This document shows positions 1 through 38,318 of a stretch of 64,000 bases of DNA, in pieces. The notes under the pieces are model-generated. The model worked only from the letters and a program-made list of their open reading frames with translations. It searched no databases and had not been told where the DNA came from. This DNA comes from Plasmodiophora brassicae (taxonomy: Eukaryota): assembly GCA_036867785.1 (NCBI GenBank), contig CP145420.1, positions 1 to 64,000 of the forward strand, written 5' to 3'. The translations under genes and the position numbers were made by a program. Position 1 is the first letter of the stretch. Each line of letters begins with the position of its first letter.

Positions 1-360
1 ACCCTAAAACCCTAAAACCCTAAAACCCTAAAACCCTAAAACCCTAAACCCTAAAACCCTAAAACCCTAAAAACCCTAAAACCCTAAAACCCTAAAACCC
101 TAAAACCCTAAAACCCTAAAACCCTAAAACCCTAAAACCCTAAAACCCTAAAACCCTAAAACCCTAAAACCCTAAAACCCTAAAACCCTAAAACCCTAAA
201 ACCCTAAAACCCTAAAACCCTAAAACCCTAAAACCCTAAAACCCTAAAACCCTAAAACCCTAAAAAACCCTAAAACCCTAAAAAACCCTAAAAAACCCTA
301 AAAAAACCCTAAAAAACCCTAAAACCCTAAAAAACCCTAAAACCCTAAAAAAACCCTAAA
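1..360 (-). repeat. Telomeric array (TTTTAGGG)n, seen as CCCTAAAA on the + strand; chromosome end
   Basis: Tandem CCCTAAAA from base 1; proximal ~100 bp (260-360) has variants with A6/A7 tracts. Confidence 0.98.
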
Positions 361-3300
361 CTGGACTCCTTCCGCCTTAAGTAACTCCTTAACCTCATCA
401 GCAAGGTGATGTTTCTCCTTCCTCATCCTGGCGGCATGTGCCTTCACCAGCTTCGGTACATCCATCGCCAACCTGCAGATTGGCTCCCATGAATCCTCCG
501 CTTCAGAGAAACCCTTCCATCCGATCAACAATTCCAATTCCCCTGTCTCCGGACTGTGCCTGCAGTCCTTGAAGACTTCAATGGCGAAACGCTCATTGTC
601 ATAATCCATCTGTCGCTTCAGTTCCTCAGTGGCATTCACTTTGCCATGTTCATAGAGGCGAACGCGGTCCCCGTGAACGGTTCGAGTGTCCGTCTCATTG
701 AACATATTCCTCACCTCGTAGGTGTAGTTCTCGTGGCTATCAGTTATTTGATATAGGCCCCGCCACTTCATAAAGAGCTTCTTGCCCGGAACCTTACCCG
801 GTTCAGGCAATCCGATGAGTACATAGTCACCGATCTGAAAGTTCGGTGCAGTTGCTCGTCGGTACGCGTCGCTCCTCTTCCTGTGTACGGCTCGGATTTT
901 CTTCGATTGCTGCACTGCTCCCTTGTGCATTTCATTCAGCGACGTCTGCAATTGCATGACTAGCTCCTGAATATGCTCCTTTGAGAGTGTAGCTTCCCCA
1001 TACTTCTCATCCCCTGGCCTCTTGAACACTTGCTTCAGCGGGTTGTCTGGTTGACGTCCCATCATCACTGTCACTGGCGCATTCCCGTTGGTACGCGCCT
1101 GCGACCTGTGATTGATCGTGTGTTCAATGTTGTGGTTCAACCATGGCCAATCGTATTTGTCCCACTGCAATTCAGACAGAAGTGCTCTGACTAGTTGCAA
1201 GTAGTTCCTGTTGATCACCTCAATTGATCCATTACTGTAATGCCCATAGGCAACAGTCGGGTGATGAGCAAATCCACATCGACGCGCCAGTTCCTTCACA
1301 ACGTTTGCCAGAAAGCAAGACGCCATGTCTGACACCATCAACTCAAACGTTCCGAAGATAGCCCTCCATTCGAGCAGTGCCTCTACAGTGGTTTCCGCAT
1401 TGGGTGTATGGTCAGGAGTAATCTTGACCATGCCAGACAGATCATCCCTGATTATCAGATTCCATTGCAGATCATGTCTTCCGCCCTTCTGAGCCGCCAT
1501 CATGTATAGCCAATCCAAGTGAATCACCTGATTCGGCCTAACACCATGAACAGCTGTTCCCAATGGCCTGGGAATCCTAACCCCGCCCCTTGTCGGTAGA
1601 CAGTTCAAACACGCGTTGCAGAACGTCCTCATGTCCTCATCGCAGTGTGCCCAATGGCAGAACTCCCCCAACTTCCTCAACGAGGCCTTCAGTCCTAGAT
1701 GCCCACTGTTTCCGCCCGCATGAGCAATAGCGCATAGCTGCAGCTTCAGCTCGTTGCATTCGTCTGGTATGATCACCTGTCCCTTCCCTGTGACGAAGAG
1801 ATCATCACCATTCTTCGGTCGTTTCGTTCCTCTGAGCCATTTCCTCTGAGCCTTACGGATTTCGTCCACGGTCGGCCATTGGAATTCCTTCCTTTGTAAC
1901 GGCCGTACCCGATATCCGTCCTCAATTTGAAGCGTTATCCTCCTGATCGTGCGTACCTCTAGGTGCTGGTCATCAGGCCCACCGTCCGGTGCACCCCACC
2001 GCGTCATAAGATCCGACCACACATTGTCCTCCCCCGCAATGTGTTCAATGACGTAGTTGACCCTCTGTATGTCCAGTGCCCATCGTTGCAGTTTCTGCGC
2101 CGTTGGCTTTGACACGTCCGTTGGTGAGAATATCCTCACGAGATTCCTATGATCGGTAAACAAACGAAACTGCTCGTTGGTTGTAACGAGATAGTCCAGT
2201 TTGTCAATCCCATCCTTGATCGCGAACCCTTCCTTCTCCACCGTGGACCAGTTCCGCTCTGGGCCCGCGAACTTGTGTCCGACGAAACCCAGCGGTTCAT
2301 GTCGCTGCCCATGCACTGGTTTACCCAAGTCCTCAGGCGGAATCTGTGTGACTACCGCCGCGCTGTTAACCTCATTTGCATCTGAGAATAGGCATTGGAT
2401 CCGGTCCTTTCGCGGGTACGCTAGTTGGACCGTGTCCGCCACTGCCATCTTCAGTTTCTCGAATGCCAGCGCATGTTCGGGTGACCATCCATATTTGCAC
2501 AATCGCACCCTCCTGGCAATGGCTTTCGTCCTGCCAGGTTGGTCCTTCATTGCATCCTCGTATATCCTCTGTAACAGGTGTACCTTCCTGTTGTACTCAG
2601 GGATGGACCTACTCATCCACTGAGTTGCCATAAGGAATTGTTGCAAGTCCCTTGCCGTCCTCGGCTGTGGTATCGCCATTAAAGCCTCAATCCTAGCAGG
2701 ATCGTGCCTTACCCCTTCTGGCGTGAATATCCTTCCACAAAACCGAACCTCTGTTGTGAAGAGCTCACACTTCTCCACGTTGAACTTGATGCTGTGCCGT
2801 TCGGCTAGCATCAGAGTCCGTTCCAACGTTCGGAACCAATCATCCTCCCTTTGGGCATGCCCCATTAGATCATCGATCCATATGATTAGTTTGTGGAACA
2901 TAAGTTCCCCGAACACCTCAAACATCCTCCCTTGATACTGAGGGGCGGAGTTCATTCCCCCCTGCATCGACCTCGTTGGCTTATACACCCCCTTATCTGT
3001 CATGAAGGAGAAGATCTCCTGACACGCTTCATCCAGCGGCATCATCCAGAAGCCTTTGAACGCGTCTAGCTTAAACCAGAACCTCGAGCCTGCCAGGTTC
3101 CTCAGTATCGCCTCCTGATGTGGCATAGGCCACGCCACGGCGACACATTTGGCATTAACAGCTCTGAGATCAACACAGAACCGCTTTCCGCCCCCTGGCT
3201 TCGTCACCACCACCACCGGTGAAGCCCACTTCGCGTTGTAGTTTTCAACGACTAGGCCATACTTCTTCAATTGGGCGACGAATTCCTCCATGAAAGCACT

Positions 3301-5025
3301 GTCCTCCATACTGTACTTTCTGGCTCGGCACCTGTAAGGTTCCGCATCCGGTTTCAGCTCCGTGACAAATGGTGTAACCCTGGCTGGACCATCAGGTCCA
3401 ATGCTCATACGCCAAACGTCCCTATATCTTCTGACGAGTTTCCGAAGCGATTTCCCCATCGCTTGCGGTAGGCCATTCCTCAATGCGCGCTCGACCATCC
3501 CGTCCATCTCCCTTTCCAGGGAGTCTGTGGAATCGGTTCCGATCCTCACATCCTCTGTTTCCTCTTCCTCCCCTTCCCAGAGAGGTGGCATCTCGTTTGC
3601 CATATTGTGCACTTCATCCATGACGTCATTCCCCTTCTTCGGCGTGCTCTTAATGAGTACGTCCAGGGCCTTCTTTGGGTGGATACCCAAGTCGTCCAAC
3701 AGCCTCTCCCCTAGGATTATTTCCTTTTCAGGAATGTCCCATACAAGGCATCGGCGCCGGCGAGTGATCAGTTCGCCTGCCGTCGTCGTCAGTCCCAGAT
3801 CCAGTATCATCACATGGTAGGCTGTGTGCTTCGTTTCTCTGTCTACCAGACAGAACGTTTCCGGCTTCTGGAGGTTCTCCATTGTTAACAATGGGTCCCG
3901 CTCCATTAGCTCGCGCGCTATGGTCAATGGCATCAGAACGTCAACCGATGTCGCTCCACTGTCCAGAACCCCAACGTAGTCTTCCTCATGTCCGTTTACA
4001 CGAACGACTACTTGGTCCCCTGTCCTCTGCGCCCCCTCCGACACTCTTCCTACCACTGGAAGCCATGGGTACTCTGACAAGTCGTCATCTTTATCAGATT
4101 TGGCCTTACGGGGTCCATCCCTTCCCGTTGGCCCCTTGCGGCGATCCTTCAGCAGGTCTGCGACCTGCTTCTTGGTAGGCTTCTTCGGGCAACGAAACGC
4201 TGGATGTCCAACCTCGTCACAGTTGAAACATCGCAGGTCCTTCCGGTGTCGTTTCGTGTCCCGGCCTCCATCGCCCCCCTCATCCGTCTGCGCCCCTCGC
4301 TTCCTCGGGGTGGGTTTGACCTTTCCCTTCCCCTTGCCATCCTCACGTCCCGGCTCCATGTACAACATCGTCTCCTCATACGATGCAGCTCGTTCCTTCA
4401 GCACCCGATAGAATTCCAAAGGGTCCTTCTGGAGATCGGTCTGGCGCTTCATGACGAGGGTCCGCATGAGCGCTTGTAAACCGGATGGGCGCACAGCACC
4501 CAGTAGGTACTTGACCAGGTTCTTCCGTCCCTCGCGGGACGTGAAGAGGTCCTGCCACCCGTTGCGCGCGACCAATTCCTCGTACTGCTGCACGAGGTTC
4601 ACGACCCTTGCAGCTGGTGTGGTGATGGTCAGCTTCATCGCCAGCTTCCGCATCTCCCGGTCGATGTTCGCGTCCGTCGAGCGATCCTGCTCCAGATGCC
4701 TCTTCATCCAGTCCATCAGGTCGCTCTCCGTCACCCCCTCGGCGTCCGTGCCGAGTTCCCACTTGCAGATCGCCCTGAGCAGACCGGGGTCGATCATACT
4801 CCTCACTGACCGTGGGATCTGGCCCTTGGCATTCGGATCGTCCCGGAAGTGATTCCGATACGTCTTCAGCTCGGCCATGAACGTCGTGACGGCCTTGCGG
4901 TCCATGCTCTTCAAGGTCGGCGCCTTGTTCATCTGCAGGACGATCGTTGAGCCTTGCACGCTCTGTCCTTGTTGTCGATCATCGACGTCATCTTCCAGCA
5001 GCATCTCCTGCGCGGTGGCCACCAT
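337..5025 (-). CDS. Gag-Pol polyprotein with chromodomain
   Basis: CCHC knuckle CFNCDEVGHPAFRC; protease LDSGA; RT motifs RFCVDLRAVN, LDAFKGFW, WIDD; RNase H FSDA...WSTVEKEG...FTDHRNL; integrase GHLG..CLNC, HLDW, VSD, NGSIE; chromodomain LIGWKGFSEAEDSWEP. Likely start is the ATG at 5025 (MVATAQ). Confidence 0.93.
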   Translation of the reverse strand: MVATAQEMLLEDDVDDRQQGQSVQGSTIVLQMNKAPTLKSMDRKAVTTFMAELKTYRNHFRDDPNAKGQIPRSVRSMIDPGLLRAICKWELGTDAEGVTESDLMDWMKRHLEQDRSTDANIDREMRKLAMKLTITTPAARVVNLVQQYEELVARNGWQDLFTSREGRKNLVKYLLGAVRPSGLQALMRTLVMKRQTDLQKDPLEFYRVLKERAASYEETMLYMEPGREDGKGKGKVKPTPRKRGAQTDEGGDGGRDTKRHRKDLRCFNCDEVGHPAFRCPKKPTKKQVADLLKDRRKGPTGRDGPRKAKSDKDDDLSEYPWLPVVGRVSEGAQRTGDQVVVRVNGHEEDYVGVLDSGATSVDVLMPLTIARELMERDPLLTMENLQKPETFCLVDRETKHTAYHVMILDLGLTTTAGELITRRRRCLVWDIPEKEIILGERLLDDLGIHPKKALDVLIKSTPKKGNDVMDEVHNMANEMPPLWEGEEEETEDVRIGTDSTDSLEREMDGMVERALRNGLPQAMGKSLRKLVRRYRDVWRMSIGPDGPARVTPFVTELKPDAEPYRCRARKYSMEDSAFMEEFVAQLKKYGLVVENYNAKWASPVVVVTKPGGGKRFCVDLRAVNAKCVAVAWPMPHQEAILRNLAGSRFWFKLDAFKGFWMMPLDEACQEIFSFMTDKGVYKPTRSMQGGMNSAPQYQGRMFEVFGELMFHKLIIWIDDLMGHAQREDDWFRTLERTLMLAERHSIKFNVEKCELFTTEVRFCGRIFTPEGVRHDPARIEALMAIPQPRTARDLQQFLMATQWMSRSIPEYNRKVHLLQRIYEDAMKDQPGRTKAIARRVRLCKYGWSPEHALAFEKLKMAVADTVQLAYPRKDRIQCLFSDANEVNSAAVVTQIPPEDLGKPVHGQRHEPLGFVGHKFAGPERNWSTVEKEGFAIKDGIDKLDYLVTTNEQFRLFTDHRNLVRIFSPTDVSKPTAQKLQRWALDIQRVNYVIEHIAGEDNVWSDLMTRWGAPDGGPDDQHLEVRTIRRITLQIEDGYRVRPLQRKEFQWPTVDEIRKAQRKWLRGTKRPKNGDDLFVTGKGQVIIPDECNELKLQLCAIAHAGGNSGHLGLKASLRKLGEFCHWAHCDEDMRTFCNACLNCLPTRGGVRIPRPLGTAVHGVRPNQVIHLDWLYMMAAQKGGRHDLQWNLIIRDDLSGMVKITPDHTPNAETTVEALLEWRAIFGTFELMVSDMASCFLANVVKELARRCGFAHHPTVAYGHYSNGSIEVINRNYLQLVRALLSELQWDKYDWPWLNHNIEHTINHRSQARTNGNAPVTVMMGRQPDNPLKQVFKRPGDEKYGEATLSKEHIQELVMQLQTSLNEMHKGAVQQSKKIRAVHRKRSDAYRRATAPNFQIGDYVLIGLPEPGKVPGKKLFMKWRGLYQITDSHENYTYEVRNMFNETDTRTVHGDRVRLYEHGKVNATEELKRQMDYDNERFAIEVFKDCRHSPETGELELLIGWKGFSEAEDSWEPICRLAMDVPKLVKAHAARMRKEKHHLADEVKELLKAEGVQFRVFLGF

Positions 5026-5072
5026 CGCGTCCTTCTTTGAAACCTTCCCCGAAAGGATGTTCAAGAGATCTC

Positions 5073-5215
5073 TGTGACGTCCCAACGGTGATGGTATATC
5101 AGCCGTGTAGTATAATCGTCTGTCTCCCCGACCTGCAGCTCCCACGGACGCCGTGCGGACTCCGTGCGCACTCCGTGCATGTCCGTCATTCTTAGGGCGG
5201 CCTAGCCGGATCACA
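5073..5215 (-). repeat. Putative 5' LTR (143 bp, TGTGA...TCACA)
   Basis: Inverted 5-bp termini bracket the segment between the gag start and LINE sequence; internal short tandem (CTCCGTGCGCA-like) at ~5149-5187; no second LTR in the window to confirm. Confidence 0.55.
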
Positions 5216-5222
5216 GCTATTC

Positions 5223-7116
5223 TTGTCTTATAGCTTGGAGCCGGCACAAGCGATTAGCATCGCTGCGTGGAATTCCGATGGTCTGGACGTCGCAAAGCTC
5301 CAGGCCACGGCCGCATTCTTCAGGGATCGTCGCCTAACGGCGGCGGTCTTTGTAGAAACTTATGTTCACTTCGAAACATCACTGACGAACGTCCTTGCAG
5401 ATTATAATGTCCGACATGTCGCCGGTGGGCGCTCCGCCGGTGAACTTCGCGGTCACGGCGGCATCAGTATCATGGTACCGTCCACTGTCGCCTTGCAAGA
5501 GGTCGCCCGCGAACGCAACCGAAGCGGCCCGAGGTGGGCAATCCGGCGCGTTGGCGAGGATCTACTCGTCGCTGGCGTCTACATTCGCCCCAGCCGGTCA
5601 CTACCCGACGTCTTCGAGTACGAGGTGACGCTTGTAGACCGGACCGCCCAATGCCCTGGCGAACGCCATCGGGGGACACTGCTCGGCCCGGGAACGTGTC
5701 GTCGTTGTCGGCGATTTCAACGCTCGACTCGGCGACATCTCGGGCGACAGCACGTCGTTCCCTAGGAAGCCCCACGTTCTGGCGCTGGCCGCACGATGCT
5801 CGCTGTCACTGCTCAACTACCCGCTGCGCGGCGATCCCAGCCGATGGACATTCGTGGTGCCCAACGGCAGCGGACGCTCCGTCGCCGATCTCGCCCTGGC
5901 TCGTGGCCTCGACGCCGCCGCCACCTTGAGTGTGGTCGGTGCGCTGGTCAGCACCGCGCATCGGATGCTGGTCATCGCGAGCGACCATGCCGTACTGGAG
6001 CGCATCGACCCGAGCCGTTATTCGTGGGCACGTCGGATGCTCGCCGATCCTGACGATCGTCCCGCCCTCACTGTCCTGCTTTCTCCGGCCTACAACTATC
6101 TTCGGGCCCTATGGATGGACGCCGCGCTGGACCTAGACGACATGCGCGACCAGCCAGTCGACAGCCTGTACCGCCATACTACTGCCGTTCTCCGTGCCGT
6201 CCTCGAGGACATCGCCTGCTGACCCAGCTCCAGATCGAAGCGGGGCCATTCGGCATCGATGCGCCCCGTCTGGAAGGCACTGCAGCGGTGCGACCTCCGC
6301 TTCTACCTGCACTCCATGCGCAGCGTCTTCTCGGCGACGTCGCAGCTCAAGCCGAGCCAACGCCCGTCCATCGAGGAGTTCACTGACCATTGGAAAGCGG
6401 TCTTCGAGAAGGCGGGCGTGGACGACGGCCCGCGCCTGCGTTCCCCACGCCTCTCCAGCGACCTGGACGACGAGGAGCGCCAGGTGTTCGACCCCGCTGT
6501 CGTCAGCGCCGTCATCCGGCGCCATGAGTGGATGAAAGGGGTCGGCCCGGACAACATACCGATGGACCTCCTGAAATGTGACCCGATTGCCGCCTGCCCC
6601 TGGATCTCCTGCATGTTCACATGCCTGTACACCGTGCAGCTCGTGCCGTCCGAGTGGCGTTCGGCGCTCGTCGTCCCCGTTCCGAAGCGCAACACCGACC
6701 CCGCTGACCCGTCCAACTGGCGAGGCATCGCGCTGAAATCCCACCCTGCGGAAGGCCTACGAGACATGCCTCGTCACGTACATGCACCTGAAAGGGTGGC
6801 TCCAGATGCACTTCCAGCTGCAGTTCGGGTTTCGGCGAGGTATCGGTGTCCCTGAAGCCGTGTAGGTGGCCGACGAGCTCACATCCCACTGGGCGTCACA
6901 ACGCAAGCCGTTTATCGAGGTCCTCCTCGACATGAGGAAGGCGTACGATAGCGCCCGCCGCATCCACGTCTACAACAAGCTACAGAGGCGCGGTGTGCCG
7001 GCCCATGTCATCGCCCTGCTGCAAGCCTTGTTCGACGGCTGCCACTTCATTATCGCCCTGGACGGGCAGCTCTCCGAGCGGATCGCCGCGCTCGTCGGCC
7101 TCTTCCAGGGCGCCAT
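5223..7116 (+). mobile_element. Degenerate LINE (non-LTR retrotransposon) ORF2: APE endonuclease plus truncated RT
   Basis: APE motifs AWNSDGL, VET, RGHGG, VAGVY, VVGDFNARLG; RT motifs GPDNIP, VPSEW..VVPVPK, NWRGIAL, QFGFR, LDMRKAYDS, GLFQG; frameshifts and stops; ends before the YxDD motif. Confidence 0.9.
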
Positions 7117-10851: not shown

Positions 10852-12858
10852 TTAATCGTCCTTGCCACTGCCCGATCCGGCCTGCAGCGTCGCGAAATTG
10901 CGTTTCCGATCGCGCTGCTGTCGCGGAGGTGGAACAAGGCCCAGGTCTATAACCAGTGTCCGCAAGATCCAGGAGTGACGGTTCACCGATGCGCCTCGCA
11001 TGCCGAAGGCCCCAGTGTTGCCCCGTTTCTCTAGAATGGCATTGACAAGGACGCCTTCCGCAGCTAGGAAGTACCGGTAACAGCTAGCCTGCCACACTTT
11101 CAAGTCATCCTGGCTGATAGGCTTGGATGGTAGCTCCATGTCGGCTGGTTTGAAAGTGGTGCTGTACTGGCTGGCCCAGAACCTGGCAGCACGCAAATGG
11201 CGCCTCGCTGTGTAGGTAAGGTTGCTCCAATCCCATAGGGAGAGGTAATCGAGGGAACGTGTGTACGCTATCGTTGCGGCCCAGGCGGATGAGATTGCGG
11301 CAGGCAACAACGGCGGGGCAGGCTTCACTTCCGATGTGCTGGGCCAAGGGATCCGGTCGACGACGTCGGCCGGCCAACTAGCATCGGCAGCACATGTGCT
11401 TGCGGCGAATGATGTCGTGCGCTTGTCTTCAACGAGCCCCAAGCGTTTAACCAGTGCTCGCAAACGCCAAGAATGACGGTTCACGGATGCACCGCACATG
11501 CCGAGGGCCCCAGTGCTGCCCTGTTTCTCTAGAACGGCCCTGACGACGACGCCCTCGGCAGCTTGGAAGTAACGATGACAGCTGGCCTGCCAGACATCGA
11601 TATCATCATCGCTGGTAGGCTTGGGTGGCAGCTCCGTGTCGGTTATCTTAAAAGTGGTGCGGTAGTGCCAGGCCCAGAACCTGGCAGCATTCAAGTGGCG
11701 ACGGGCCGTGCAGGTAAGATTGCTCCAATCCCATAATGAAGTGTCATCTAGGGAACGCGTGTACGCGATCGTTGCAGCACAGGCCGATGGTATTGCGGCA
11801 GGCAACGATGGTACGGTCTCCTCTGCCTTACTATTGGGCCATGGGAATGTGGTGCAGATGCCGGTACAAAGCACAATCGATTCATCATCACTACCAGGTC
11901 TGCAAACTCCAGCGGCCTGAGTCTCGGCGATGCCGGTACAAAGTACAGACGTCGATGCATCATCAGTACTAGGTCTGGAAACGTCAGTGGCCTGATTCTC
12001 GGACAGAGATACTCGGCGGCTTGGAGGGGAATGAGATGCCGTCGATGTCCTGCTGCTGGATGCGTCAACTTTCTTCAGAAGCCGACTCGGGATGGAAGCA
12101 TGGCTGCTGGACCGTGCAGCACTCGGGCAAGTTTGAGACCAAGTGGTCAGCGTCATCGGAGGATCGGGTGAGACGGGCTCCATGACAGTGTCCATCCTAA
12201 CCAGGTATTCGAGAGAAGATTGGCGTGTCACCTGGGACGTACCACGTGTGCGACAATCGACAAGCGTGCAGGTCCGGTCGACGACACTTTCAAGACGAAG
12301 GTTTCGGAAGCAGAATTTTCCAGTGTCTTGAACCAACAGCATTCCTAATGCCTCAATCGTGAACGGACGCGTGAAGAACGATGAGAAATGCGATCGCCCG
12401 GCCTCGCAGATCCAGATCGACTGCCGCATCGGGCTTTGGATCCATGGACGGACGGCCTCCGGGATCTGGCCCTGTCTGAGGCTCTCCACGAGCGCGTCGG
12501 CCTCCCTGATGATGTCCATCAAATCCAGGTTCACGAATGCAAATGCGAGACTGTCAGGGATAGCCATGTGTCGGTCCTCGGGCGACTCCAGAGTGTCACT
12601 ATTCAGGCACGATGCTGCGGCGCGAATCAAATCATATGTTAATCCATCCGCCAGAGTCACCATCATGCTTGTAACCCGCCCCACTAGAGGACACTCGAAC
12701 CAATGAGTCAGGCCGGCCGCGGCTAGCACAGCGTTGGCATGGTCGGCCTGCTGGCGCGTCATCATTGGCGGCATATCCAACGGATACACTGGAAGATTCA
12801 CAGCCAGCGCATAACGCGTGGTATATGCGAGCAGGAACACAGCGAGTGCCACAGTCAT
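10852..12858 (-). CDS. Predicted secreted protein with two ~125-aa tandem domains
   Basis: Signal-like MTVALAVFLLAYTTRYALA at 12858; domain duplicated at ~11432-11803 and ~10934-11305 (TIAYTRSLD..SLWDWSNLT.TARRHL.AARFWA). Confidence 0.6.
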   Translation of the reverse strand: MTVALAVFLLAYTTRYALAVNLPVYPLDMPPMMTRQQADHANAVLAAAGLTHWFECPLVGRVTSMMVTLADGLTYDLIRAAASCLNSDTLESPEDRHMAIPDSLAFAFVNLDLMDIIREADALVESLRQGQIPEAVRPWIQSPMRQSIWICEAGRSHFSSFFTRPFTIEALGMLLVQDTGKFCFRNLRLESVVDRTCTLVDCRTRGTSQVTRQSSLEYLVRMDTVMEPVSPDPPMTLTTWSQTCPSAARSSSHASIPSRLLKKVDASSSRTSTASHSPPSRRVSLSENQATDVSRPSTDDASTSVLCTGIAETQAAGVCRPGSDDESIVLCTGICTTFPWPNSKAEETVPSLPAAIPSACAATIAYTRSLDDTSLWDWSNLTCTARRHLNAARFWAWHYRTTFKITDTELPPKPTSDDDIDVWQASCHRYFQAAEGVVVRAVLEKQGSTGALGMCGASVNRHSWRLRALVKRLGLVEDKRTTSFAASTCAADASWPADVVDRIPWPSTSEVKPAPPLLPAAISSAWAATIAYTRSLDYLSLWDWSNLTYTARRHLRAARFWASQYSTTFKPADMELPSKPISQDDLKVWQASCYRYFLAAEGVLVNAILEKRGNTGAFGMRGASVNRHSWILRTLVIDLGLVPPPRQQRDRKRNFATLQAGSGSGKDD

Positions 12859-13338
12859 TGGGCAACAGTCGACTTCGACGGATTTGCGGGCGCACAGCAG
12901 CGGCCAGCGCGGTAGGGCCTCAAACGGCTCTCTTTGACGCCTTGATACCTGCCCAATTCCCGCCAACCCACTTCGTGCCCAAGCCAGTTTTGCCCGAGAG
13001 GGGAGTGGCGTGCAAAGCTCCAACGTTGGGCGCGCAGCATGTCGGCGTTTCGTCAAAGTACTCGCCACGAGCGATTGCCTTCCCATTCGTTGTAGTGTGG
13101 ACGCTGACGTCAGGACATGCCGTGACATTTGATGTGATCGCTTTAGTGTTCGCAATTGCGATGGCACGGCATCAGCACCATACCTCACAATCACAGACGC
13201 GACGATTGCAGATTCGCGCTTCAACCTGGTCGCGCTGCGCAGGCACCTCTGGATTCGGACAGCGCCTATTATCGATCACGTCTCAAAGACATGAGAACAA
13301 TTACCATTTGCTGTCAAAAGTCAAGCCGCAAAACTCGT

Positions 13339-16300
13339 TCATTTACGAAGGCCTATGCCAGACCTCATGGACGGCGACTTCATTGGTCGGCTCAGTTGCG
13401 AGTGCACTAGGCTGCCATCATCTGATGCCGCATCTGGAACGGGCTGGGGATGTGCACTTGAGGATCTGTCGATCGCCGGCGCTGCTGCTGATGCAACTGT
13501 TGGCTGTGATGACGAGAAGTTCATGACGAGTTCAACCCCGGCGGGGAACTTGCTGTGATCGGCGTCTTTGTAAGCCTTGTCCATGTCGGCCTTGACGAAT
13601 CGCAGGCAGTCGCCAACGAATGCAGCATGTAGGCAGACGTAGACAAGAACTTTCGCCAGCTTTCCCTTCTTCTCTCGCGACAGCACTTCCACCTTGATAT
13701 CGCCGGTTAGGACGCAGACCTTCCGGAGGCGCCACGTGCAGGTCGTCGCTGTTCGTGTCATCATCCGGATCCACTTCTGCCGTACTTTGCCGTCATCCTG
13801 CTGCACGGCAATCATCAGCCAGATCTCGTTATCCTCGGGCACCATCGTCCTGTCGATGTTGTTCAACACTACGCCGATCAGGCAGACGTTTCGGCGCAGA
13901 TCGTGGGTGCGACCCCCAGAGAGATACTCTTCATCTGTTCATAATTGTGCACCATGTCAGTGCGGGCGAACGCATTGTATCACAACATGCCTTACAATAG
14001 TGCACATATCGCGTTTGCGACGGGGTCATTGACGATTCGTTCTCGAGGTCGGGCCGACGCGTCCAGAACAAGCGCAGGGCGGCGTCGGCCGTGGACGCGA
14101 CGCCGCTATCGAGGAGGTAGGCAGCAGCCATCATGCTGGATCGTCCTTTGCCGGCCTTGCTATGTATCAAGGCTAGCGACGATTTCGTCGACAACCACTG
14201 GCGCATGGAGTCGCAGTAGTCGATCATCATCTGGAACGGGCAGGGAGCGTGCCCGGAGAACGGGAACTGGACGATCTGGTCGCCCGGCACCTGTGAAATG
14301 TCGTAGTCGACCTCTGCGTATGCATGAGGTGCGTCAGGTGGGGATATAAGCACGTTCCGCTCGAATGGGACGCACCTAGGCACAGGTTGTAGATTCGGTA
14401 CCGGACGTGCTGGGGCTGCAAGTGATCCGCCAGGAGCCGCGCCATGATCTGTCGGATGTCGTTCGTTGTGAACACGAGGATGATGACGCGGTCGGTGACC
14501 TGGATGGTGTCGAGTCCTGGCACGGACGACCACGATACAGTGGGCGGCACAAGCGAGGCCGACGCGGGCCTTGGGCTCTGTACCGCATGGGACGTCGTCT
14601 TGCTCCCGGCGACGTCCTTCAAGCATTGCTTATGATGCAGGGTCGCTTGCAGTGCGGCCTGCAACGTCAGGCAGGAACGTGACAGGTTTCGTGCTCGTCG
14701 GCCAGCCGCGTAGGACGACAGAGCGCCTTGCAGGACGCCGAGTGATGCATAGTACCGTTTCTGCCGCAAGCGCGCCAGGTACGCCTTCGTGCCGGCCTGC
14801 ACTGCGATACAGTGTCGAGCGATGGCCAGGTCGCGTGCCGACTCTAACGCCCGGTAAACGTCGTCCTTGAGGAACACCATGGTTCGTCCCAGGTGGAAGG
14901 CGGCCTGGCCCCGCAGCGACTCCACAAGATCAACCTTGTCCTCCAAGATCGTGCCAACAATCGATTCGGTGGTGGCGGACGCATTCCCGAGAGGCCGGTA
15001 TCTATACGCGAACGTGTCGTGCGGGATACGTATAGGGTATCCCGCCTGTCGCACTCGAACCATCTCCAGCACGCCTAACAAACGCTAAGGGAACCTGGGT
15101 CGACAGCGGACGTTGCAACCTCAGCTGTACCTGCGTTGGACAGCTGTTCGAACACCATGGGCGATTGGAACTCGTCGGGCAGCTGTCGCTGGTTGGGTTT
15201 GATGCATCGGACGAACTGCGGCGACGTGTCGTTGAGCATGGTCACCAGATGTTGCACCTGGGCGCGGAAATGTCCCGCCTGAAACTTGCCCTTCTTGGTG
15301 CTCTTTTTCCTCGTCTGCAAGCTGTTCGCGTCCTCCTCGGTGATCTCCTGCGGAGCGGCTGACGAATTGACGATCGTGCCGACCTGCTCGGACGTGGCCA
15401 TCTCCAGCAGATCGTGCAAGTCGTCGCTGATGCGGTCCTTGTTCTTGCTGAGGAATTCGCCCACATTGTACTGGACGTCGCCAGCGTAATGCGAGATGGT
15501 CAGATGCAGGGGACGCTTCCGGCTGTCATCCTTGAAGACGGACGACGTGGCATGGGCCTTGCAGACCTTTTCGAAGAAGGCCTGGGTGGACCCTTGTGGG
15601 ATCAGGCACTCGTCGTCGAGCATGGAGAATACGCCGGACGGCGCCGAATCGATGACGGCCAGCGTGGGCGAACAGTCCGGGAAGGTGATGGTCTCCCAGG
15701 GCACGCCCTCTCTCTCGTACACGGCCTGCTCGGCGACGGACAGGACCCGCTCAATGAAGATCGACTGCAGCCGCTCGTTGCAGTAGTTGATGCAGATCTG
15801 CTCGAACCCGTTGTACTCGTCGAATCGTTCGAACCCCTGTGGGTAAATGTCAGGTGGGCGGTAACGCGATAGCATTATAACAGGCACTGACAAAGATGTC
15901 GAGAATGCCGATAGTGTGCGTCGTTCCGCGTGCGTTGCTTGGGCGAGCTGAGAATGACGAGTTGCTGGGGGCGGTGGACGAATCAGGCTGGAGGGCCTGG
16001 TTCATACGGGCGATCAGCCATCGGAACAGTCTGGCGTACATCTCCTTGGCGAGCGCGTTGCGCGCCGAATCGGCCTTGTCCACGTCCACAGGCACATAGA
16101 CGCGGTGTGCATCCTGCCCGATGCGACGCCCGATCAGAGCATCGCGTGTCGCTTCGTCCTCTGTGCACCGCCACAATCAGCCGACGCACCGATCGTCACC
16201 ATGCGGACAGGTCGTGTCCATACCGAATGTGGACAGCTTCAGGAACCAAGTCAGATGGGTACCTGTCTGCAGGACCGCATGCCCTTCGTCGTCACTGGCG

Positions 16301-17475
16301 AACTCGAGGTTGCCGAGGTGCAGGATGGCGGCAAGGACGTTGAGGACAGCCTGGCGCTCCCCGCCCGACATGCCCAACTGTTCCATGGCGTCGACGATCT
16401 CCTGCAGGTCACCAACGTGCGCCTGTGCTGGGCCGGCCGACCCTGCGTCCTGCCCGGGCTGTCCGCCCAGGAACTTGTACGCAGCTGGCCTCGGCACGAG
16501 TCCATACGTCGACCGGAGCGTCGCCTCGGGTTGTCCACCGAGCAACGCGTAGAAGATGTGAAAGTTCCGTTCGCCGCTGCTGTGCGATACGATGCGGGAC
16601 GTTTCCAGCATGAAGTACGACATGGACGCGTCCTGCATCTCGCCCGACCCGGCCGACATGTGGATCTGCAGGTACTTCCCGAACCGGGAACTGTTGTCGT
16701 TCCGGAGCGTGCGCGCGTTGCCGAATGCCTCCAGCACCGGGTTGCACTCGACGACCCGCTTCTGGATGCGGGCCGCAACTGGGCACGTTTCCATCCTCAG
16801 CATGCGCGCAGGCGCGGAAACGATGGACGACGGCGACGGCCTACCTTCGTGCTCGGTGACGTTCGTGGCAGCGGCATTGGCCGACAGGACGGCCAGGAAT
16901 TGCAGGGCGTACTTGGCGGCTTCCGTCTTCCCGCTGCCGGAGTCGCCACAGATGATGAGCGACTGAGCGGTGCCATCCCGTCGCATCCGCTGGTAGCACT
17001 GGGCCGTCGTGCCAAAGATGTGTGGCGTGCTGGACCCCGACAGGTACGTGTCGACGGCAGGGCCCTCGTACATGCCGTCGATGAGCCGGAACGGGTTCAC
17101 CGATAGCAGCGTAGAGCCGGCGGCCGTGTACACCTGCGCGTGATGGAACCGCTGGCGCAGCGTCGCCAGCAGTGATGGGGCATTGACGCGGTCGAGCAGG
17201 GTCAGGTCGGTGACGTCGTGGAGAGGCCCCGTGTCCGCCCCGACCGATATCAGCGACGACATGGGCACGGCACGTGTCGGCGCATTGTCAGTGGCGTTGC
17301 CGCCGTCGTCATGGACAACGGCGACGTCAACGAGGTCGGACGGGGACCCGACAGGTGGATTGGCGGTAGGGCCCAGAACGCGCGCCTTCACGTACACGTG
17401 CTGCGGATCTGGGGCCCAGTACATGGACGGGCTGGATGGCGCGCCGCCGGCCATGACCCGCGCTATGCTCGACAA
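13339..17475 (-). CDS. Myosin (motor + IQ motifs) with C-terminal PTEN-like pseudophosphatase and C2 domain; multi-exon
   Basis: GDSGSGKTE, LEAFGNARTLRNDNSSRFGK, ERNFHIFY, IGILDIF/GFE, FEQICINYCNERLQ, FVRCIKPN, GRTMVFLK; IQ-like VQAGTKAYLAR; PTEN-like YRIYNLC, HSKAGKGR, TPSQTRYVHY; C2-like GDIKVEV, DMDKAYKD. The 3' end is uncertain. Confidence 0.92.
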
Positions 17476-17884
17476 CGGGGTGCTCTAGAGGTACCAGTGC
17501 CGGCGATCGACCATCGCGTTAAGGCTCGACTACCATTATAATACAGGTGGGGCGGGCACGCTGTGCGATTCAACCGTGCCACTGTCGAGTCTGTTGACGA
17601 CGTTGCGCGTGTCGGTGAGGACGCATACCCACACAACTTGTGAATGGCCCGAGCAGGTAGAGGGCATGCAGGGGTGGGTGCCCGTGTGCGCCCGGATCTG
17701 GCGCGCCGCCGCACCGTTGTCATTATGACTGCCTGCCACAACGTGCACAGCGTAAGCCACCCGCCTCGAACCGGGCGGCAGCTGGTTCGCGGACGGTGGT
17801 GGGAGCCCACCTGATCCGCCGGGGAGACGTTCCCGCTGACAGGGGCGCGCCATGGTCGCGGCTTGCGCCCGAATGCAACTGGGC

Positions 17885-18211
17885 ATGGAGATGTGCCTGA
17901 GCTGGTTGCTGGACATGGTGACCGTCAAGAGGCCTCCCAGCAAACCAATGGACAGCATGGCGGGCCCGGACCGGCTCGACGACGACCAGGTCGGGCGGGC
18001 CAAGGTCCCCAGCGTCGTCGGCGAACCGGACGTCTTCGACGACGACATCGTGCTAGACATCGCGTACGATGACGACGACCTGTACCATGACGAGGGTGCG
18101 CCGACCCAGGTCGACTTTGACTGGAACTGCCTGAAGGCGCCGGCACCGACCCGAATTGAGCCGGGCGCCGCCCCGCCCGTACAGGCGCCCGGTCCGGGCC
18201 ACGACGACTAG
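17885..18211 (+). CDS. Small acidic hypothetical protein
   Basis: ORF with GC-ending codon usage and Asp-rich content; no recognised motif. Confidence 0.3.
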   Translation: MEMCLSWLLDMVTVKRPPSKPMDSMAGPDRLDDDQVGRAKVPSVVGEPDVFDDDIVLDIAYDDDDLYHDEGAPTQVDFDWNCLKAPAPTRIEPGAAPPVQAPGPGHDD

Positions 18212-36956: not shown

Positions 36957-38318
36957 CTACAGTAGCGGGTTCTCGTAAAACAGTGACCTCTGGTGGTTCG
37001 ACTGGGCCAGGCGAAGGCGCTCGTCCAGGCGTTCCTTTTGACGTGGGTTCAACCTCTCCAGGCGTTCATCGAGAGACGGCGCCGTTGCGCGCCCTAATAC
37101 CTGGTTGTGACGACGGGGACGGGATCCGTGCCGCCCTCGGGGTACCTCCTCACATTGTATAACACGATGCAGGCCGTTGTTCTCATCGTCGTCGTCGTCT
37201 TCCTCGTCACGACAGTACGCGTTCGCTATGGACATGGCATGGCGCCAGAAGACGTGTCGGACAGCGGCTTGCATTCGCGGGATTCGCCATTGGGCATGAA
37301 GGTGGAATTGCAGGTCCCGGTGCGTCAGCAGCGAGCTGCTCGATCTGAAGTTCGCCATCTTTTCGTCAAAGACGCACCTGGTCAGGATGAGCGGATGCTC
37401 GGGCGCCAGTTCATACTGCGGCTTCCTCGGGTACCGCTCCACGTCCAGCAGCTCGTCGACGATCGATGGCGATTCCAGACGCCGACCAACCAGAAGCAGG
37501 ATCGCCATCATGCACCGGATCTGGTTGTATAGGAAGCAACGCGCGTTCACCGTCAACGCCATCATGCGATCGTACGGATGGGCAGCATTGGATCGTCCGG
37601 CATCGATGTGGTCTGCGTGCTCATCGACAGGTCCAACGCGAACGCCGTCAATCGTCCTGACGAAGTTGTGACAGGACACGACCGACATACGGCAGAAGTT
37701 TCTGAAATCGTGTGTCCCGACGAACTTGTTGGCGGCCACCTGCATGGCCTCGATATCCATGCCATCGGCGAAGAACAGGTACTGGTATGTCCGTCCTAAG
37801 CAATGATGCCGGGCATGGAAGTCATCATCCACGAACGCGTATCCGGTACAGTAGATATCTGGGGGTAGGACGCGATTCAGAACGGCTTGATAGTCGATCG
37901 GCAGGCAGCTATCGTCGGAGGGTGCTCGTAGATCCAATGCAACGACGTTCTCCAGAGCGGAGACCCCCTTGTCGGTACGGCCACACCTCGAGAAGCGGGG
38001 AATGTCGTTGCGGGAGCGAACCAAGTGCGCCTTTTCCAATGCGATACGAAGCTGGCCTTCAATCGTGTCATCGACATTGGGCTGAATGGCCAGTCCTCTG
38101 TATTTGGCACCGTTGTACGCCAAGCGCAGCGCAACTGGGCGCGTCGTATACGACGACCAGTCAAACGGACGGTGTGACTTCTTCTTAGGTCGGGCCGGAG
38201 CAATCGGCTGCGACGACTCGAGTCGAAGGATGCGTTCGACGAGTACCTCGATGGGTTGCTGCAGAAGGCGAGCGCGTTCGGTCTCGACGGATACGCGACG
38301 ATTGTTGCGACGAGTCAT
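36957..38318 (-). CDS. PUS3: tRNA pseudouridine(38/39) synthase (TruA family)
   Basis: ALRLAYNG..YRGLA.Q, SRCGRTDKGVSA, FVGTHDFRNFC, FLYNQIRCMMAIL, KPQY. Confidence 0.93.
   Translation of the reverse strand: MTRRNNRRVSVETERARLLQQPIEVLVERILRLESSQPIAPARPKKKSHRPFDWSSYTTRPVALRLAYNGAKYRGLAIQPNVDDTIEGQLRIALEKAHLVRSRNDIPRFSRCGRTDKGVSALENVVALDLRAPSDDSCLPIDYQAVLNRVLPPDIYCTGYAFVDDDFHARHHCLGRTYQYLFFADGMDIEAMQVAANKFVGTHDFRNFCRMSVVSCHNFVRTIDGVRVGPVDEHADHIDAGRSNAAHPYDRMMALTVNARCFLYNQIRCMMAILLLVGRRLESPSIVDELLDVERYPRKPQYELAPEHPLILTRCVFDEKMANFRSSSSLLTHRDLQFHLHAQWRIPRMQAAVRHVFWRHAMSIANAYCRDEEDDDDDENNGLHRVIQCEEVPRGRHGSRPRRHNQVLGRATAPSLDERLERLNPRQKERLDERLRLAQSNHQRSLFYENPLL

What the first reader, a model, noticed from the sequence alone, without database searches (positions are those of the whole stretch)
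13339..17475. Myosin whose tail is a dead PTEN phosphatase plus C2 module
Seen: one continuous exon (ORF 14227-15081) runs from the myosin converter (GRTMVFLK) through IQ-like motifs into PTEN-like LDTIQVTDRVIIL...YRIYNLC, so the fusion does not depend on gene modelling. The next exon has HSKAGKGR (AGC at 14159-14161; PTEN has HCKAGKGR) and FPFSGHAP (PTEN FEDHNP), so both the nucleophilic Cys and the general-acid Asp are replaced. A PTEN-type C2 follows (GDIKVEV, DMDKAYKD...FP). Known: inactive PTEN-C2 modules act as phosphoinositide sensors in auxilin/GAK, tensins and plant class II formins. I do not recall a myosin class with this tail. Inference: a motor that binds phosphoinositide membranes directly.
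Basis: partly seen in the sequence, partly recalled or inferred. Interest (0 to 1): 0.82.

Follow-up and report, generated by a model that had tools for sequence, protein, structure and literature searches.

The report
Myosin motor with dead-PTEN membrane tail
A plant-associated eukaryote makes an actin motor (myosin) whose cargo end is a PTEN-type lipid phosphatase that has lost its catalytic residues, so it probably reads membrane lipids; we found no record of this combination.

Summary
On the minus strand, 17454-13339, lies a gene of seven coding exons whose spliced CDS gives 1250 residues with no internal stop. All six GT-AG introns are removed in contigs of public runs, and one contig appears to bridge from the motor to the C2 domain. 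The motor-to-PTEN junction lies inside one exon (14376-15073). Domains are a myosin head with intact P-loop and switches I and II, three IQ-like repeats, a PTEN-like phosphatase domain and a PTEN-type C2. The PTEN signature reads HSKAGKGR, with Ser (AGC 14159-14161) for the nucleophile Cys, and FPFSGHAP, with Gly for the general-acid Asp. Four runs from four studies show no other letter there. A 309-residue fragment from another source (P0124, 49% identical over 297 residues) has the same two changes, and its model superposes on PTEN at TM 0.81. The motor falls in no sampled myosin class. No other myosin-PTEN protein turned up in protein, atlas, metagenome or literature searches. Best reading: a monomeric motor anchored to anionic or 3-phosphoinositide membranes by a pseudophosphatase-C2 module, as in class II formins. 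Lipid binding is inferred, not shown. It is a new variant of a known kind.

The parts
13339..17454 (-). Whole coding region of the myosin-PTEN-C2 gene: 7 coding exons, 3753 nt of CDS, 1250 aa plus stop
   Evidence: Exons joined at the RNA-supported joints translate with no internal stop. The ATG at 17454 is the first in-frame ATG after the in-frame stop at 17485-17487.
16845..17454 (-). Coding exon 1: N-terminus and the start of the motor, including the P-loop GDSGSGKTE (residue 170)
   Evidence: Pfam Myosin_head E 4e-77 on ORF 16177-17484. Motif positions.
16779..16844 (-). Intron 1 (66 nt, GT..AG, in frame)
   Evidence: Joint 16778/16845 in X15 and X20 contigs. Splice sites GTAGGC..GCCCAG.
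16224..16778 (-). Coding exon 2: motor, including switch I NDNSSRFGK (residue 230)
16161..16223 (-). Intron 2 (63 nt, GT..AG)
   Evidence: Joint 16160/16224 in an X15 contig. Splice sites GTATGG..GCACAG.
15892..16160 (-). Coding exon 3: motor. Switch II LDIFGFE (residue 475) spans the junction between exons 3 and 4.
   Evidence: Pfam Myosin_head E 1e-10 on ORF 15850-16176..
15837..15891 (-). Intron 3 (55 nt, GT..AG once the cut is shifted by 1 as the tool notes)
   Evidence: Joint 15835/15891 'cut +1' in X15 and X18 contigs.
15131..15836 (-). Coding exon 4: lower half of the motor
   Evidence: Pfam Myosin_head E 1.8e-66, profile positions 372-611.
15075..15130 (-). Intron 4 (56 nt, GT..AG with the cut shifted by 1)
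   Evidence: Joint 15073/15130 'cut +1' in an X15 contig.
14376..15074 (-). Coding exon 5, the fusion exon. It holds the end of the motor and converter (GRTMVFLK at 14866-14889), three IQ-like repeats at 23-residue spacing (residues 805, 828, 851; about 14632-14802), a linker of about 35 residues, and the first ~45 residues of the PTEN-like domain (LDTIQVTDRVIIL...YRIYNLC).
   Evidence: One open frame. Pfam Myosin_head profile 605-679. IQ-like spacing. Nearest atlas feature clusters are IQ and Myosin_head. Pfam IQ itself was not detected.
14314..14375 (-). Intron 5 (62 nt, GT..AG)
   Evidence: Joint 14313/14376 in X15 and X18 contigs.
13996..14313 (-). Coding exon 6: core of the PTEN-like phosphatase domain. 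It contains FPFSGHAP (14243-14266; Gly 14252-14254 in place of the general-acid Asp) and HSKAGKGR (14141-14164; Ser AGC 14159-14161 in place of the nucleophile Cys).
   Evidence: phmmer against the PDB: PTEN E 1.9e-14, alignment shown. No other letters in X15, X18, X19 or X20 pieces covering this place.
13935..13995 (-). Intron 6 (61 nt, GT..AG)
   Evidence: Joint 13934/13996 in X15 and X20 contigs.
13513..13881 (-). PTEN-type C2 domain (in coding exon 7, 13339-13934), with a basic loop SREKKGKLAK after GDIKVEV. Net charge of the C2 segment is +7.
   Evidence: Pfam PTEN_C2 E 1.7e-13. AlphaFold model of this exon has pLDDT 82-96 over residues 11-140. Best PDB folds are the C2 of PTEN and Ci-VSP, E about 1e-6. 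Charge.
13342..13512 (-). Ser/Ala/Pro-rich C-terminal extension of about 55 residues, predicted disordered, followed by stop TGA 13339-13341
   Evidence: pLDDT 44-58 for the last 6 blocks of 10 residues. Composition S11 A8 P7 of 55.
14038..15802 (+). Spliced antisense transcript over coding exons 4-6. Four + strand GT..AG introns: 14338-14392, 14779-14892, 15037-15089, 15192-15248.
   Evidence: X19 record 13 carries all four joints and X18 record 7 carries two of them. Exact GT..AG ends and a longest + strand ORF of only 146 aa come.

Best explanation
This is a real, expressed, single gene for a 1250-residue unconventional myosin. It has a catalytically competent-looking motor and a short lever of three IQ-like repeats. 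There is no room for a coiled coil, so it is probably single-headed. The tail is a PTEN phosphatase-plus-C2 module. That module keeps the PTEN fold, the whole Lys/Arg-rich P-loop (H-x-K-A-G-K-G-R) and a basic C2 loop. It has lost the nucleophile (Cys to Ser) and the general acid (Asp to Gly). It is therefore most likely a pseudophosphatase that holds on to anionic or 3-phosphorylated phosphoinositide head groups instead of hydrolysing them. In that reading the tail docks the motor directly on a membrane, so that force on actin moves or tethers that membrane. Functionally this resembles the TH1/PH tail of class I myosins and the PTEN domain of plant class II formins. What is shown: the gene structure, the splicing, the domain identities and folds, the two substitutions, and their conservation in a relative. 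What is inferred: loss of activity, lipid binding, monomeric state and membrane cargo.
For: Gene and transcript. The 7 exons give an open 1250-aa frame. All 6 introns are removed in contigs of runs from 4 studies. X15 record 2 (2378 nt) lies on 13764-15835 with three introns out. Its remaining 485 nt match the joints 15835/15891 and 16160/16224, which have the same depth, so it reaches 16438 in the motor (the last step is my inference from lengths and depth). The junction exon 14376-15074 is one open frame from converter to PTEN.

Motor. Pfam Myosin_head covers profile positions 2-679 across the exons. The P-loop, switch I and switch II motifs are present.

Tail. PTEN is the best PDB sequence hit of the phosphatase exon (E 1.9e-14). 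PTEN_C2 scores above its Pfam cut-off. The model of the window's own C2 exon best matches the PTEN and Ci-VSP C2 domains. The related fragment P0124 is 48.8% identical over 297 residues and colinear across both exon joints. Its model (pLDDT 81, pTM 0.83) matches PTEN at TM 0.81, E 6e-23.

Substitutions. Ser and Gly sit at the PTEN Cys and Asp columns, and no other letter is seen in 4 of 4 runs laid. P0124 shows the same HSKAGKGR and FPFSGHAP, and P0127 shows HSKAGKGR.

Retained binding features. K, K and R of the P-loop are kept, the C2 loop SREKKGKLAK is basic, and the C2 net charge is +7.

Precedent. The class II formin PTEN domain lacks a catalytic residue, binds PI(3,5)P2 and thereby targets the formin. 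A Cys-to-Ser MTM1 keeps phosphoinositide binding without activity (PMC3410418, abstract and passages). Apicomplexan formin-2 carries a PTEN-C2-like domain (PMC6688858, passages).
Against: No lipid-binding, activity or localisation data exist for this protein. The N-terminal basic PIP2-binding stretch of PTEN has no obvious counterpart: the linker before the domain has only 2 Lys/Arg in 35 residues. Pfam models of the phosphatase domain score only below their cut-offs (DSPc 23-25 bits against 33.5). The Pfam IQ model is not detected even at E up to 10, so light-chain binding is uncertain. The C2 exon alone finds nothing significant by plain sequence search in the PDB (best E 0.19). The laid runs are labelled RNA only by guess, and they are de Bruijn contigs, so one uninterrupted mRNA molecule has not been seen. 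One contig (X18 record 7) mixes sense and antisense joints, which shows that these contigs can be chimeric paths. PTEN-like domains in tensin and auxilin also serve protein-protein contacts (recalled, not tested here).
Confidence: 0.6

Rival explanations
1. The PTEN-C2 tail is a protein-binding cargo adaptor or an autoinhibitory domain rather than a lipid reader. It would bind a phosphoprotein or other partner, or fold back on the motor. The Ser/Pro-rich C-terminal extension might play the regulatory role that PTEN's phosphorylated tail plays.
For: The pocket has the substitutions of a classical substrate trap (Cys to Ser, Asp to Gly), which could hold a phosphoprotein as well as a lipid. PTEN C124S is used as a trap for a protein substrate in PMC4754336 (search listing only). 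There is a disordered Ser-rich C-terminal extension of about 55 residues after the C2, in the position of PTEN's regulatory tail. There is no PTEN-like basic N-terminal motif.
Against: The two P-loop lysines that distinguish lipid-directed PTEN from protein phosphatases (their role is recalled) are kept exactly. The C2 is basic, at +7. The closest precedents of inactive PTEN modules fused to actin machinery bind lipids (PMC3410418).
Confidence: 0.22
2. The tail is still an active phosphoinositide or protein phosphatase that the motor carries along actin, working with Ser or another residue as nucleophile.
For: The rest of the signature (His, both Lys, both Gly, Arg) and the PSQxRY segment are conserved. 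HSKAGKGR recurs in stand-alone PTEN-like proteins on ciliate-code contigs that keep the Asp (L001, L002, P0125). Such recurrence would be odd for a purely dead enzyme.
Against: Cys-to-Ser replacement abolishes activity in this enzyme class. This is stated for MTM1 in PMC3410418; that it holds generally for CX5R phosphatases is recalled. The general-acid Asp is lost as well.
Confidence: 0.07
3. The gene is an artefact or a dying gene: an assembly or contig chimera of a myosin gene and a PTEN gene, or a pseudogene.
For: All transcript evidence is from assembled contigs, some visibly chimeric between strands (X18 record 7). No protein of this organism is in the protein collections searched.
Against: The junction lies inside one exon with an unbroken frame. 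14 runs hold 0.99-1.00 of the sampled words of the 4.2-kb stretch. The 3753-nt CDS has no stop. Both halves keep their family motifs. The tail is 49% identical to a fragment from another source, with the odd residues conserved.
Confidence: 0.03

Closest known systems
Plant class II formins (e.g. moss For2A) and apicomplexan formin-2: actin nucleators with a PTEN / PTEN-C2 module
   Same: In both, an inactive PTEN-like phosphatase plus C2 is fused to an actin-machinery domain. In For2A the module lacks a catalytic residue, binds PI(3,5)P2 and targets the protein to the cortex (PMC3410418). A PTEN-C2-like domain occurs in formin-2 (PMC6688858).
   Different: The partner here is a myosin motor, not FH1-FH2. 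The module is C-terminal, not N-terminal. The formin domains lack the catalytic Arg, whereas here the Arg and both Lys are kept and Cys and Asp are the residues replaced.
PTEN / TPTE / voltage-sensing phosphatases (active lipid 3-phosphatases)
   Same: The two-domain phosphatase-C2 fold is shared. For P0124 the TM-score is 0.81 to PTEN and 0.79 to Ci-VSP. The window's C2 exon best matches PTEN and Ci-VSP. The P-loop is identical to PTEN's except for one residue.
   Different: The nucleophile Cys is Ser and the general-acid Asp is Gly. There is no basic N-terminal motif. The module is attached behind a myosin neck.
Tensin and auxilin/GAK PTEN-like pseudophosphatase regions
   Same: Both are catalytically inactive PTEN-plus-C2 modules inside larger cytoskeletal or trafficking proteins. 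Auxilin 3n0a is a fold match at TM 0.71 for P0124, and a Tensin 2 cluster appears among the atlas structure hits.
   Different: They are much less similar in sequence: auxilin E 5.9e-5 against PTEN 6e-26 for P0124. Their P-loops are degenerate (recalled), whereas this one is almost intact.
Myosins with lipid-binding tails: class I (TH1), and SAR myosins with FYVE, PX, PH or Aida_C2 tails
   Same: Both have a motor, a short neck and a membrane-lipid-binding tail with no coiled coil. FYVE, PH, TH1 and Aida_C2 tails appear among the best motor hits. Aida_C2 in class XXXI is stated in PMC3942036.
   Different: The motor is only 31-35% identical to any of them and joins no supported clade. None of the 120 listed hits carries a PTEN-family Pfam domain.

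Membership tests
Myosin superfamily | Myosin head (motor) domain along its full length | tested here: met
   Pfam PF00063 on the four exon ORFs covers profile positions 2-290, 300-359, 372-611 and 605-679 of 679 (E 4e-77 to 7e-7). BLASTP gives 31-35% identity over about 750-870 residues to many myosins.
Myosin superfamily | Nucleotide-binding motifs: P-loop GESGAGKT, switch I NxNSSRFGK, switch II DIxGFE (consensus forms recalled) | tested here: met
   GDSGSGKTE at residue 170, NDNSSRFGK at 230 and LDIFGFE at 475 in the spliced protein.
Myosin superfamily | Neck with IQ light-chain-binding motifs | tested here: inconclusive
   Three [VL]Q-started repeats lie at exact 23-residue spacing (residues 805, 828, 851). 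Atlas features are nearest to IQ and Myosin_head clusters (score 0.94). The Pfam IQ model is not reported at E up to 10.
An established myosin class (I, IV-like MyTH4-WW, V/XI, VI, VII/XV, VIII, oomycete FYVE/ankyrin types) | Motor domain groups inside the class clade with support | tested here: not met
   Tree of 35 rows: the query plus 32 of the 120 hits listed and 2 of the 3 hits. I chose the rows to span tail types and labelled them from Pfam tails and source names. The query has the longest end branch (2.1), no starred set holds it, and its only grouping is an unstarred one (83-86 SH-aLRT) with two oomycete FYVE myosins and one MyTH4 myosin. This is not a curated reference set of all 79+ classes, so membership of an unsampled class is not excluded.
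Active PTEN-family lipid phosphatases | Phosphatase domain packed on a PTEN-type C2 domain | tested here: met
   Pfam PTEN_C2 above cut-off. PTEN is the top PDB hit of the phosphatase exon. The fold of P0124 matches PTEN over both domains, and the window's own C2 model matches the PTEN C2. The window's phosphatase domain itself could not be folded because it is split by an intron.
Active PTEN-family lipid phosphatases | Catalytic Cys in the HCxxGxxR signature | tested here: not met
   HSKAGKGR, with Ser codon AGC at 14159-14161, aligned to 'ihckagkgr' of PTEN. No variant in 4 of 4 runs laid.
Active PTEN-family lipid phosphatases | General-acid Asp in the loop FEDHNP | tested here: not met
   FPFSGHAP aligned to 'ypfedhnp': Gly stands at the Asp column. 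P0124 shows the same.
PTEN-like pseudophosphatase targeting modules (tensin, auxilin/GAK, class II formins) | PTEN fold with lost catalytic residue(s), embedded in a larger cytoskeletal or trafficking protein | tested here: met
PTEN-like pseudophosphatase targeting modules (tensin, auxilin/GAK, class II formins) | Binds membrane lipids or phosphoinositides without hydrolysing them | not testable with these tools
   There are only indirect signs: the retained P-loop Lys/Arg, the basic C2 loop and the C2 net charge of +7.

The most novel reading that the evidence does not exclude
This gene founds a new myosin class whose tail is a natural 'substrate-trap' PTEN. The P-loop is intact, but the nucleophile and the general acid have been removed. 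Evolution has thus turned a 3-phosphatase into a stereospecific reader of 3-phosphoinositides, giving a motor steered directly by PI3K-type signals on membranes. With the formins and tensin, this would be a third independent recruitment of the PTEN-C2 module to the actin machinery. The multi-intron antisense transcript, which is the only spliced form seen in a run labelled with another organism, could switch the motor off in one life stage.
Probability: 0.3. Interest if true: 0.75.

Novelty: new variant of a known kind. Interest (0 to 1): 0.6.

Why it matters
Myosin tails decide what a motor carries. Many tails bind lipids through PH, FYVE, PX or TH1 domains. A PTEN pseudophosphatase has not, in any source I could search, been reported on a myosin.

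If the tail reads phosphoinositides, it would show that the PTEN-C2 module has been recruited repeatedly to couple actin machinery to membranes: to formin nucleators, to tensin, and now to a motor. It would also offer a natural Cys-to-Ser, Asp-to-Gly 'trap' as a ready-made probe for whichever lipid it recognises.

The value is tempered by context. Protist genomes are known to hold hundreds of unclassified myosins with new tails: 287 orphans, perhaps 160 further types (PMC5583752, passages). A new tail is therefore not a surprise in kind.

Tried and rejected
- **Whole genome.** None is held for this window, so I could not look for a canonical Cys-PTEN, paralogues or copy number.
- **Earlier findings of this scan.** Nothing by place or by sequence.
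- **Sequencing runs.** No RNA holder is listed. The four runs I laid are 'RNA?' by guess only.
- **Parts without cover.** 12981-13342 in all four runs, and several motor bins in X19, say nothing either way. I therefore do not use them to set the 3' end. The last 23 nt of the CDS and the 3' UTR have no contig.
- **Joint 16438/17186.** It skips 747, has GA..TG ends and a side of 30, and occurs in one X15 contig. I treated it as a contig artefact and did not follow it.
- **Loose end at 13759.** It belongs to a depth-223 contig in X15. Its 30-nt consensus has 0 matches in the window at up to 3 mismatches. Unexplained.
- **Word-based protein searches.**
  - Fusion exon, longer proteins: 3 hits, all ordinary MyTH4 myosins at 32% identity.
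  - Motor exon: 6502 hits at E <= 1e-20 among 8000 candidates scored. The best 120 are listed, none with a PTEN-family domain and none above 38% identity.
  - Phosphatase exon: 2 hits.
- **Full HMMER scan.** The C2 exon against 1.84 billion representatives gave 7 hits at E <= 0.001, none longer than 541 aa. P0129, a cotton phytocyanin-repeat protein, looks like a low-complexity false hit.
- **Metagenome scan.** The first alignment (A2) was rejected as not conserved enough. With A3, 370 stretches matched a pattern and 3 were relatives. All three are ~2-kb contigs at 22-27% identity; the two whose ORFs I read (L001, L002) encode stand-alone PTEN-like proteins in the ciliate code, with no myosin upstream. 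L003 was not inspected.
- **Atlas.** No cluster combining Myosin_head and PTEN families was found near either query. Only clusters of 50 or more members are searched.
- **PDB phmmer with the C2 exon alone.** Nothing significant.
- **Pfam IQ.** Not detected.
- **Upstream and downstream ORFs.** No Pfam family, so the neighbours do not help.
- **Taxon.** Not determined. Organism names are coded, and no protein of this organism is in the collections.
- **Literature.**
  - Searches returned 2, 5, 0 and 0 papers. None of the 7 listed concerns a myosin with a PTEN tail, judged from titles and abstract starts.
  - 'PTEN' occurs 0 times in the main texts of PMC5583752, PMC3942036 and PMC5455982.
  - Their supplements, which hold the domain tables and orphan lists, are closed and may bear on the novelty claim.


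Full report
**What is in the sequence.** The window is GC-rich eukaryotic DNA, with a GC fraction of 0.49-0.70 per 2 kb. Between 13339 and 17484 the minus strand carries a chain of long stop-to-stop frames. Pfam assigns them as follows:
- Myosin_head on ORF 16177-17484: E 4e-77, profile positions 2-290.
- Myosin_head on 15850-16176: E 1e-10, profile 300-359.
- Myosin_head on 15075-16001: E 1.8e-66, profile 372-611.
- Myosin_head on 14227-15084: E 7e-7, profile 605-679.
- DSPc on 13931-14629: E 5.8e-5, below its cut-off.
- PTEN_C2 on 13339-13938: E 1.7e-13, 50.9 bits against a cut-off of 27.1.

Examples are GRTMVFLK at 14866-14889, and LDTIQVTDRVIIL...YRIYNLC in the same frame. HSKAGKGR lies at 14141-14164 with AGC at 14159-14161. 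FPFSGHAP lies at 14243-14266.

**Gene model and transcript evidence.** I laid contigs of four public runs from four studies on 12800-18200. They remove six introns that have CT..AC ends on the + strand, which is GT..AG on the gene's strand:

| Intron | Length (nt) | Runs showing the joint |
|---|---|---|
| 16779-16844 | 66 | X15, X20 |
| 16161-16223 | 63 | X15 |
| 15837-15891 | 55 | X15, X18 |
| 15075-15130 | 56 | X15 |
| 14314-14375 | 62 | X15, X18 |
| 13935-13995 | 61 | X15, X20 |

Joining the exons at these joints gives a CDS of 3753 nt, or 1250 residues, with the only stop at the end. The ATG at 17454 is the first in frame after the stop at 17485-17487. Three contigs run colinearly through 17186-17473 with no joint, so I see no hidden upstream coding exon.

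X15 record 2 (2378 nt) lies on 13764-15835 with three introns removed. Its first 485 nt fit the two further joints of equal depth (270 + 215 nt). It therefore appears to reach 16438, well inside the motor. That last step is my inference.

There are caveats. The runs are 'RNA?' by guess, and they are assembled contigs rather than single molecules. One contig (X18 record 7) mixes joints of both strands, so chimeric paths do occur. The point that matters most does not depend on any of this: the motor-to-PTEN junction lies inside one exon (14376-15074) in one open frame.

**The motor.** The P-loop (GDSGSGKTE, residue 170), switch I (NDNSSRFGK, 230) and switch II (LDIFGFE, 475) are all present. The motor therefore looks able to hydrolyse ATP. 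After the converter come three [VL]Q-started repeats at exactly 23-residue spacing, at residues 805, 828 and 851. The first, VQAGTKAYLAR, is close to the IQ consensus (recalled), and the other two are degenerate. The Pfam IQ model does not report them. The atlas's language-model features for this exon are nearest to IQ and Myosin_head clusters (0.94). About 35 residues separate the third repeat from the PTEN domain, which leaves no room for a coiled coil. I therefore infer a single-headed motor.

**The tail.**
- **Sequence.** The phosphatase exon's best PDB hits are PTEN chains (E 1.9e-14), then TPTE2 and Ci-VSP. PRL phosphatases and auxilin are far weaker.
- **Catalytic columns.** The printed alignment puts 'ihskagkgr' on PTEN 'ihckagkgr' and 'fpfsghap' on 'ypfedhnp'. 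The nucleophile Cys is Ser and the general-acid Asp is Gly. His, both Lys, both Gly and the Arg of the signature are unchanged.
- **C2 fold.** A model of the window's own last exon is confident over residues 11-140 (block means 82-96) and poor over the last ~55 residues. Its best PDB matches are the C2 domains of PTEN and Ci-VSP, at E about 1e-6 over ~135-145 columns.
- **Limit.** The window's phosphatase domain is split by an intron, and spliced sequence could not be handed to the fold tool.
- **Proxy.** I therefore used P0124, a 309-residue fragment found with the phosphatase exon. It is 48.8% identical to the spliced tail over 297 residues and colinear across both exon joints, which independently supports the splice model. 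Its model (pLDDT 81.3, pTM 0.83) superposes on PTEN at TM 0.81 (E 6e-23), on Ci-VSP at 0.79 and on auxilin at 0.71.
- **Basic surfaces.** The loop after GDIKVEV reads SREKKGKLAK, and the C2 segment has a net charge of +7.

**Is the Ser real and conserved?** The pieces of X15, X18, X19 and X20 that cover 14159-14161 show no other letter. 14 runs hold 0.99-1.00 of the sampled words of the stretch. P0124 has both HSKAGKGR and FPFSGHAP, and the fragment P0127 has HSKAGKGR. The signature with Ser also occurs in stand-alone PTEN-like proteins that keep the Asp (P0125/P0132 with FNDHAP; L001 and L002, which encode the protein in the ciliate code, with EDHEAP). The Ser variant is therefore not unique to this gene and is not tied to the myosin fusion.

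**Relatives and class.** No orthologous full-length protein was found.
- The fusion exon found three ordinary MyTH4 myosins.
- The motor exon's best 120 listed hits, out of 6502 at E <= 1e-20, reach only 31-38% identity. They carry TH1, DIL, MyTH4, FYVE, ankyrin/PH/Aida_C2 or other tails, and never a PTEN-family domain.
- The spliced protein is 31-35% identical to the best of them.
- In a quick IQ-TREE tree of 35 rows, the query has the longest end branch (2.1) and sits in no starred clade. Its only grouping is unstarred (83-86 SH-aLRT), with two oomycete FYVE myosins and one MyTH4 myosin. The class I, V/XI, VIII and VII/XV-like groups are each recovered with stars and exclude it. The rows were the query, 32 of the 120 hits listed and 2 of the 3 hits. 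I chose them to span tail types; 88 listed hits, mostly fungal class I, were left out.
- This is not a curated class reference set. The honest statement is 'unclassified, long-branched', not 'new class'.
- The full HMMER scan of 1.84 billion representatives with the C2 exon gave 7 hits, none a long protein.
- The metagenome scan gave only the three short contigs L001-L003; L001 and L002 encode stand-alone PTEN-like proteins in the ciliate code.
- Neither atlas search showed a cluster combining the two families.

**How it most likely works.** A monomeric motor with a short lever ends in a PTEN-C2 module. That module has kept everything needed to cradle a phosphoinositide head group and to sit on an anionic bilayer, but has lost the two residues that do the chemistry. 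The nearest worked example is the moss class II formin. Its PTEN domain lacks a catalytic residue, binds PI(3,5)P2, and is required for cortical targeting. It can be replaced by other PI(3,5)P2 binders, including a Cys-to-Ser MTM1 that 'maintains phosphoinositide binding' without activity (PMC3410418, abstract and passages). Apicomplexan formin-2 also carries a PTEN-C2-like domain thought to recruit it to a membrane (PMC6688858, passages).

By analogy, I read the tail as a membrane anchor that may prefer 3-phosphorylated inositides. The motor would then drag or tether that membrane along actin. I put this at about 0.6. The rivals are:
- a protein-binding or autoinhibitory role for the trap-like pocket and the disordered Ser-rich C-terminus (about 0.22);
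- residual catalysis (about 0.07);
- an artefact or pseudogene (about 0.03).

**Comparison with the literature.**
- 'PTEN' does not occur in the main text of the two pan-eukaryotic myosin classifications (PMC5583752; PMC3942036). Nor does it occur in the rhizarian myosin survey (PMC5455982).
- PMC3942036 does record Y_phosphatase domains on choanoflagellate myosins and an Aida_C2 domain on class XXXI.
- PMC5583752 reports 287 orphan myosins that may amount to 160 further types.
- Four full-text searches combining myosin with PTEN terms gave 2, 5, 0 and 0 papers. Judged from titles and abstract starts, none is about such a myosin.
- The supplements of the classification papers, InterPro and CyMoBase could not be consulted.

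**Verdict.** The functional half is a reasonable inference that has not been tested. The gene is best filed as a new variant of a known kind: an unclassified unconventional myosin whose lipid-binding tail is, unusually, a PTEN pseudophosphatase-C2 module. Interest is 0.6.

Noticed in passing
window 14038-15802, + strand: A spliced antisense transcript overlaps coding exons 4-6 of the myosin gene. It has four + strand GT..AG introns (14338-14392, 14779-14892, 15037-15089, 15192-15248). X19 record 13, from a run labelled with another organism, carries all four joints and no sense joint. X18 record 7 mixes two of them with two sense joints. X15 shows only sense joints. The longest + strand ORF in the spliced form is 146 aa, so it is probably non-coding.
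   Followed up: partly
L001 1-1674 (+) and L002 405-2024 (+); proteins P0125/P0132: Stand-alone PTEN-like proteins from other protists also carry HSKAGKGR (Ser for the catalytic Cys) but keep the general-acid Asp (EDHEAP, FNDHAP). L001 and L002 encode theirs in the ciliate code. A Ser-type PTEN signature therefore recurs outside this gene.
   Followed up: partly
window 13759 (run X15): A high-depth contig (the bin depth is 223, against about 23 for the gene) matches the gene only from 13759 upward. It continues for 255 letters into sequence that is not in the window. It may be a repeat, a paralogue or a chimeric contig.
   Followed up: partly
window 337-5253, - strand: A 1638-aa open frame with RVT_1, RNase H-like and integrase zinc-binding domains: a retrotransposon pol-type ORF of the Ty3/gypsy kind (the kind is recalled).
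   Followed up: no
window 10852-13275, - strand: An 807-aa open frame directly downstream of the myosin gene, with no Pfam family. It contains two copies of a ~130-residue repeat (…TIAYTRSLD..SLWDWSNLT.TARRHL.AARFWA…NRHSW), visible in the translation.
   Followed up: no
window 17523-18200 and beyond: Contigs of much higher depth than the myosin gene (70-205 against 3-24) cover the region just upstream. In X15 one of them runs on into the first coding exon down to 17186. None of the six ORFs tested there has a Pfam family.
   Followed up: partly
window 30534-32732 (-) and 36957-38540 (-): ORFs with a DNA_topoisoIV domain (E 8e-18) and a tRNA pseudouridine synthase domain (E 4e-27): ordinary housekeeping genes of the same eukaryotic genome.
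   Followed up: no
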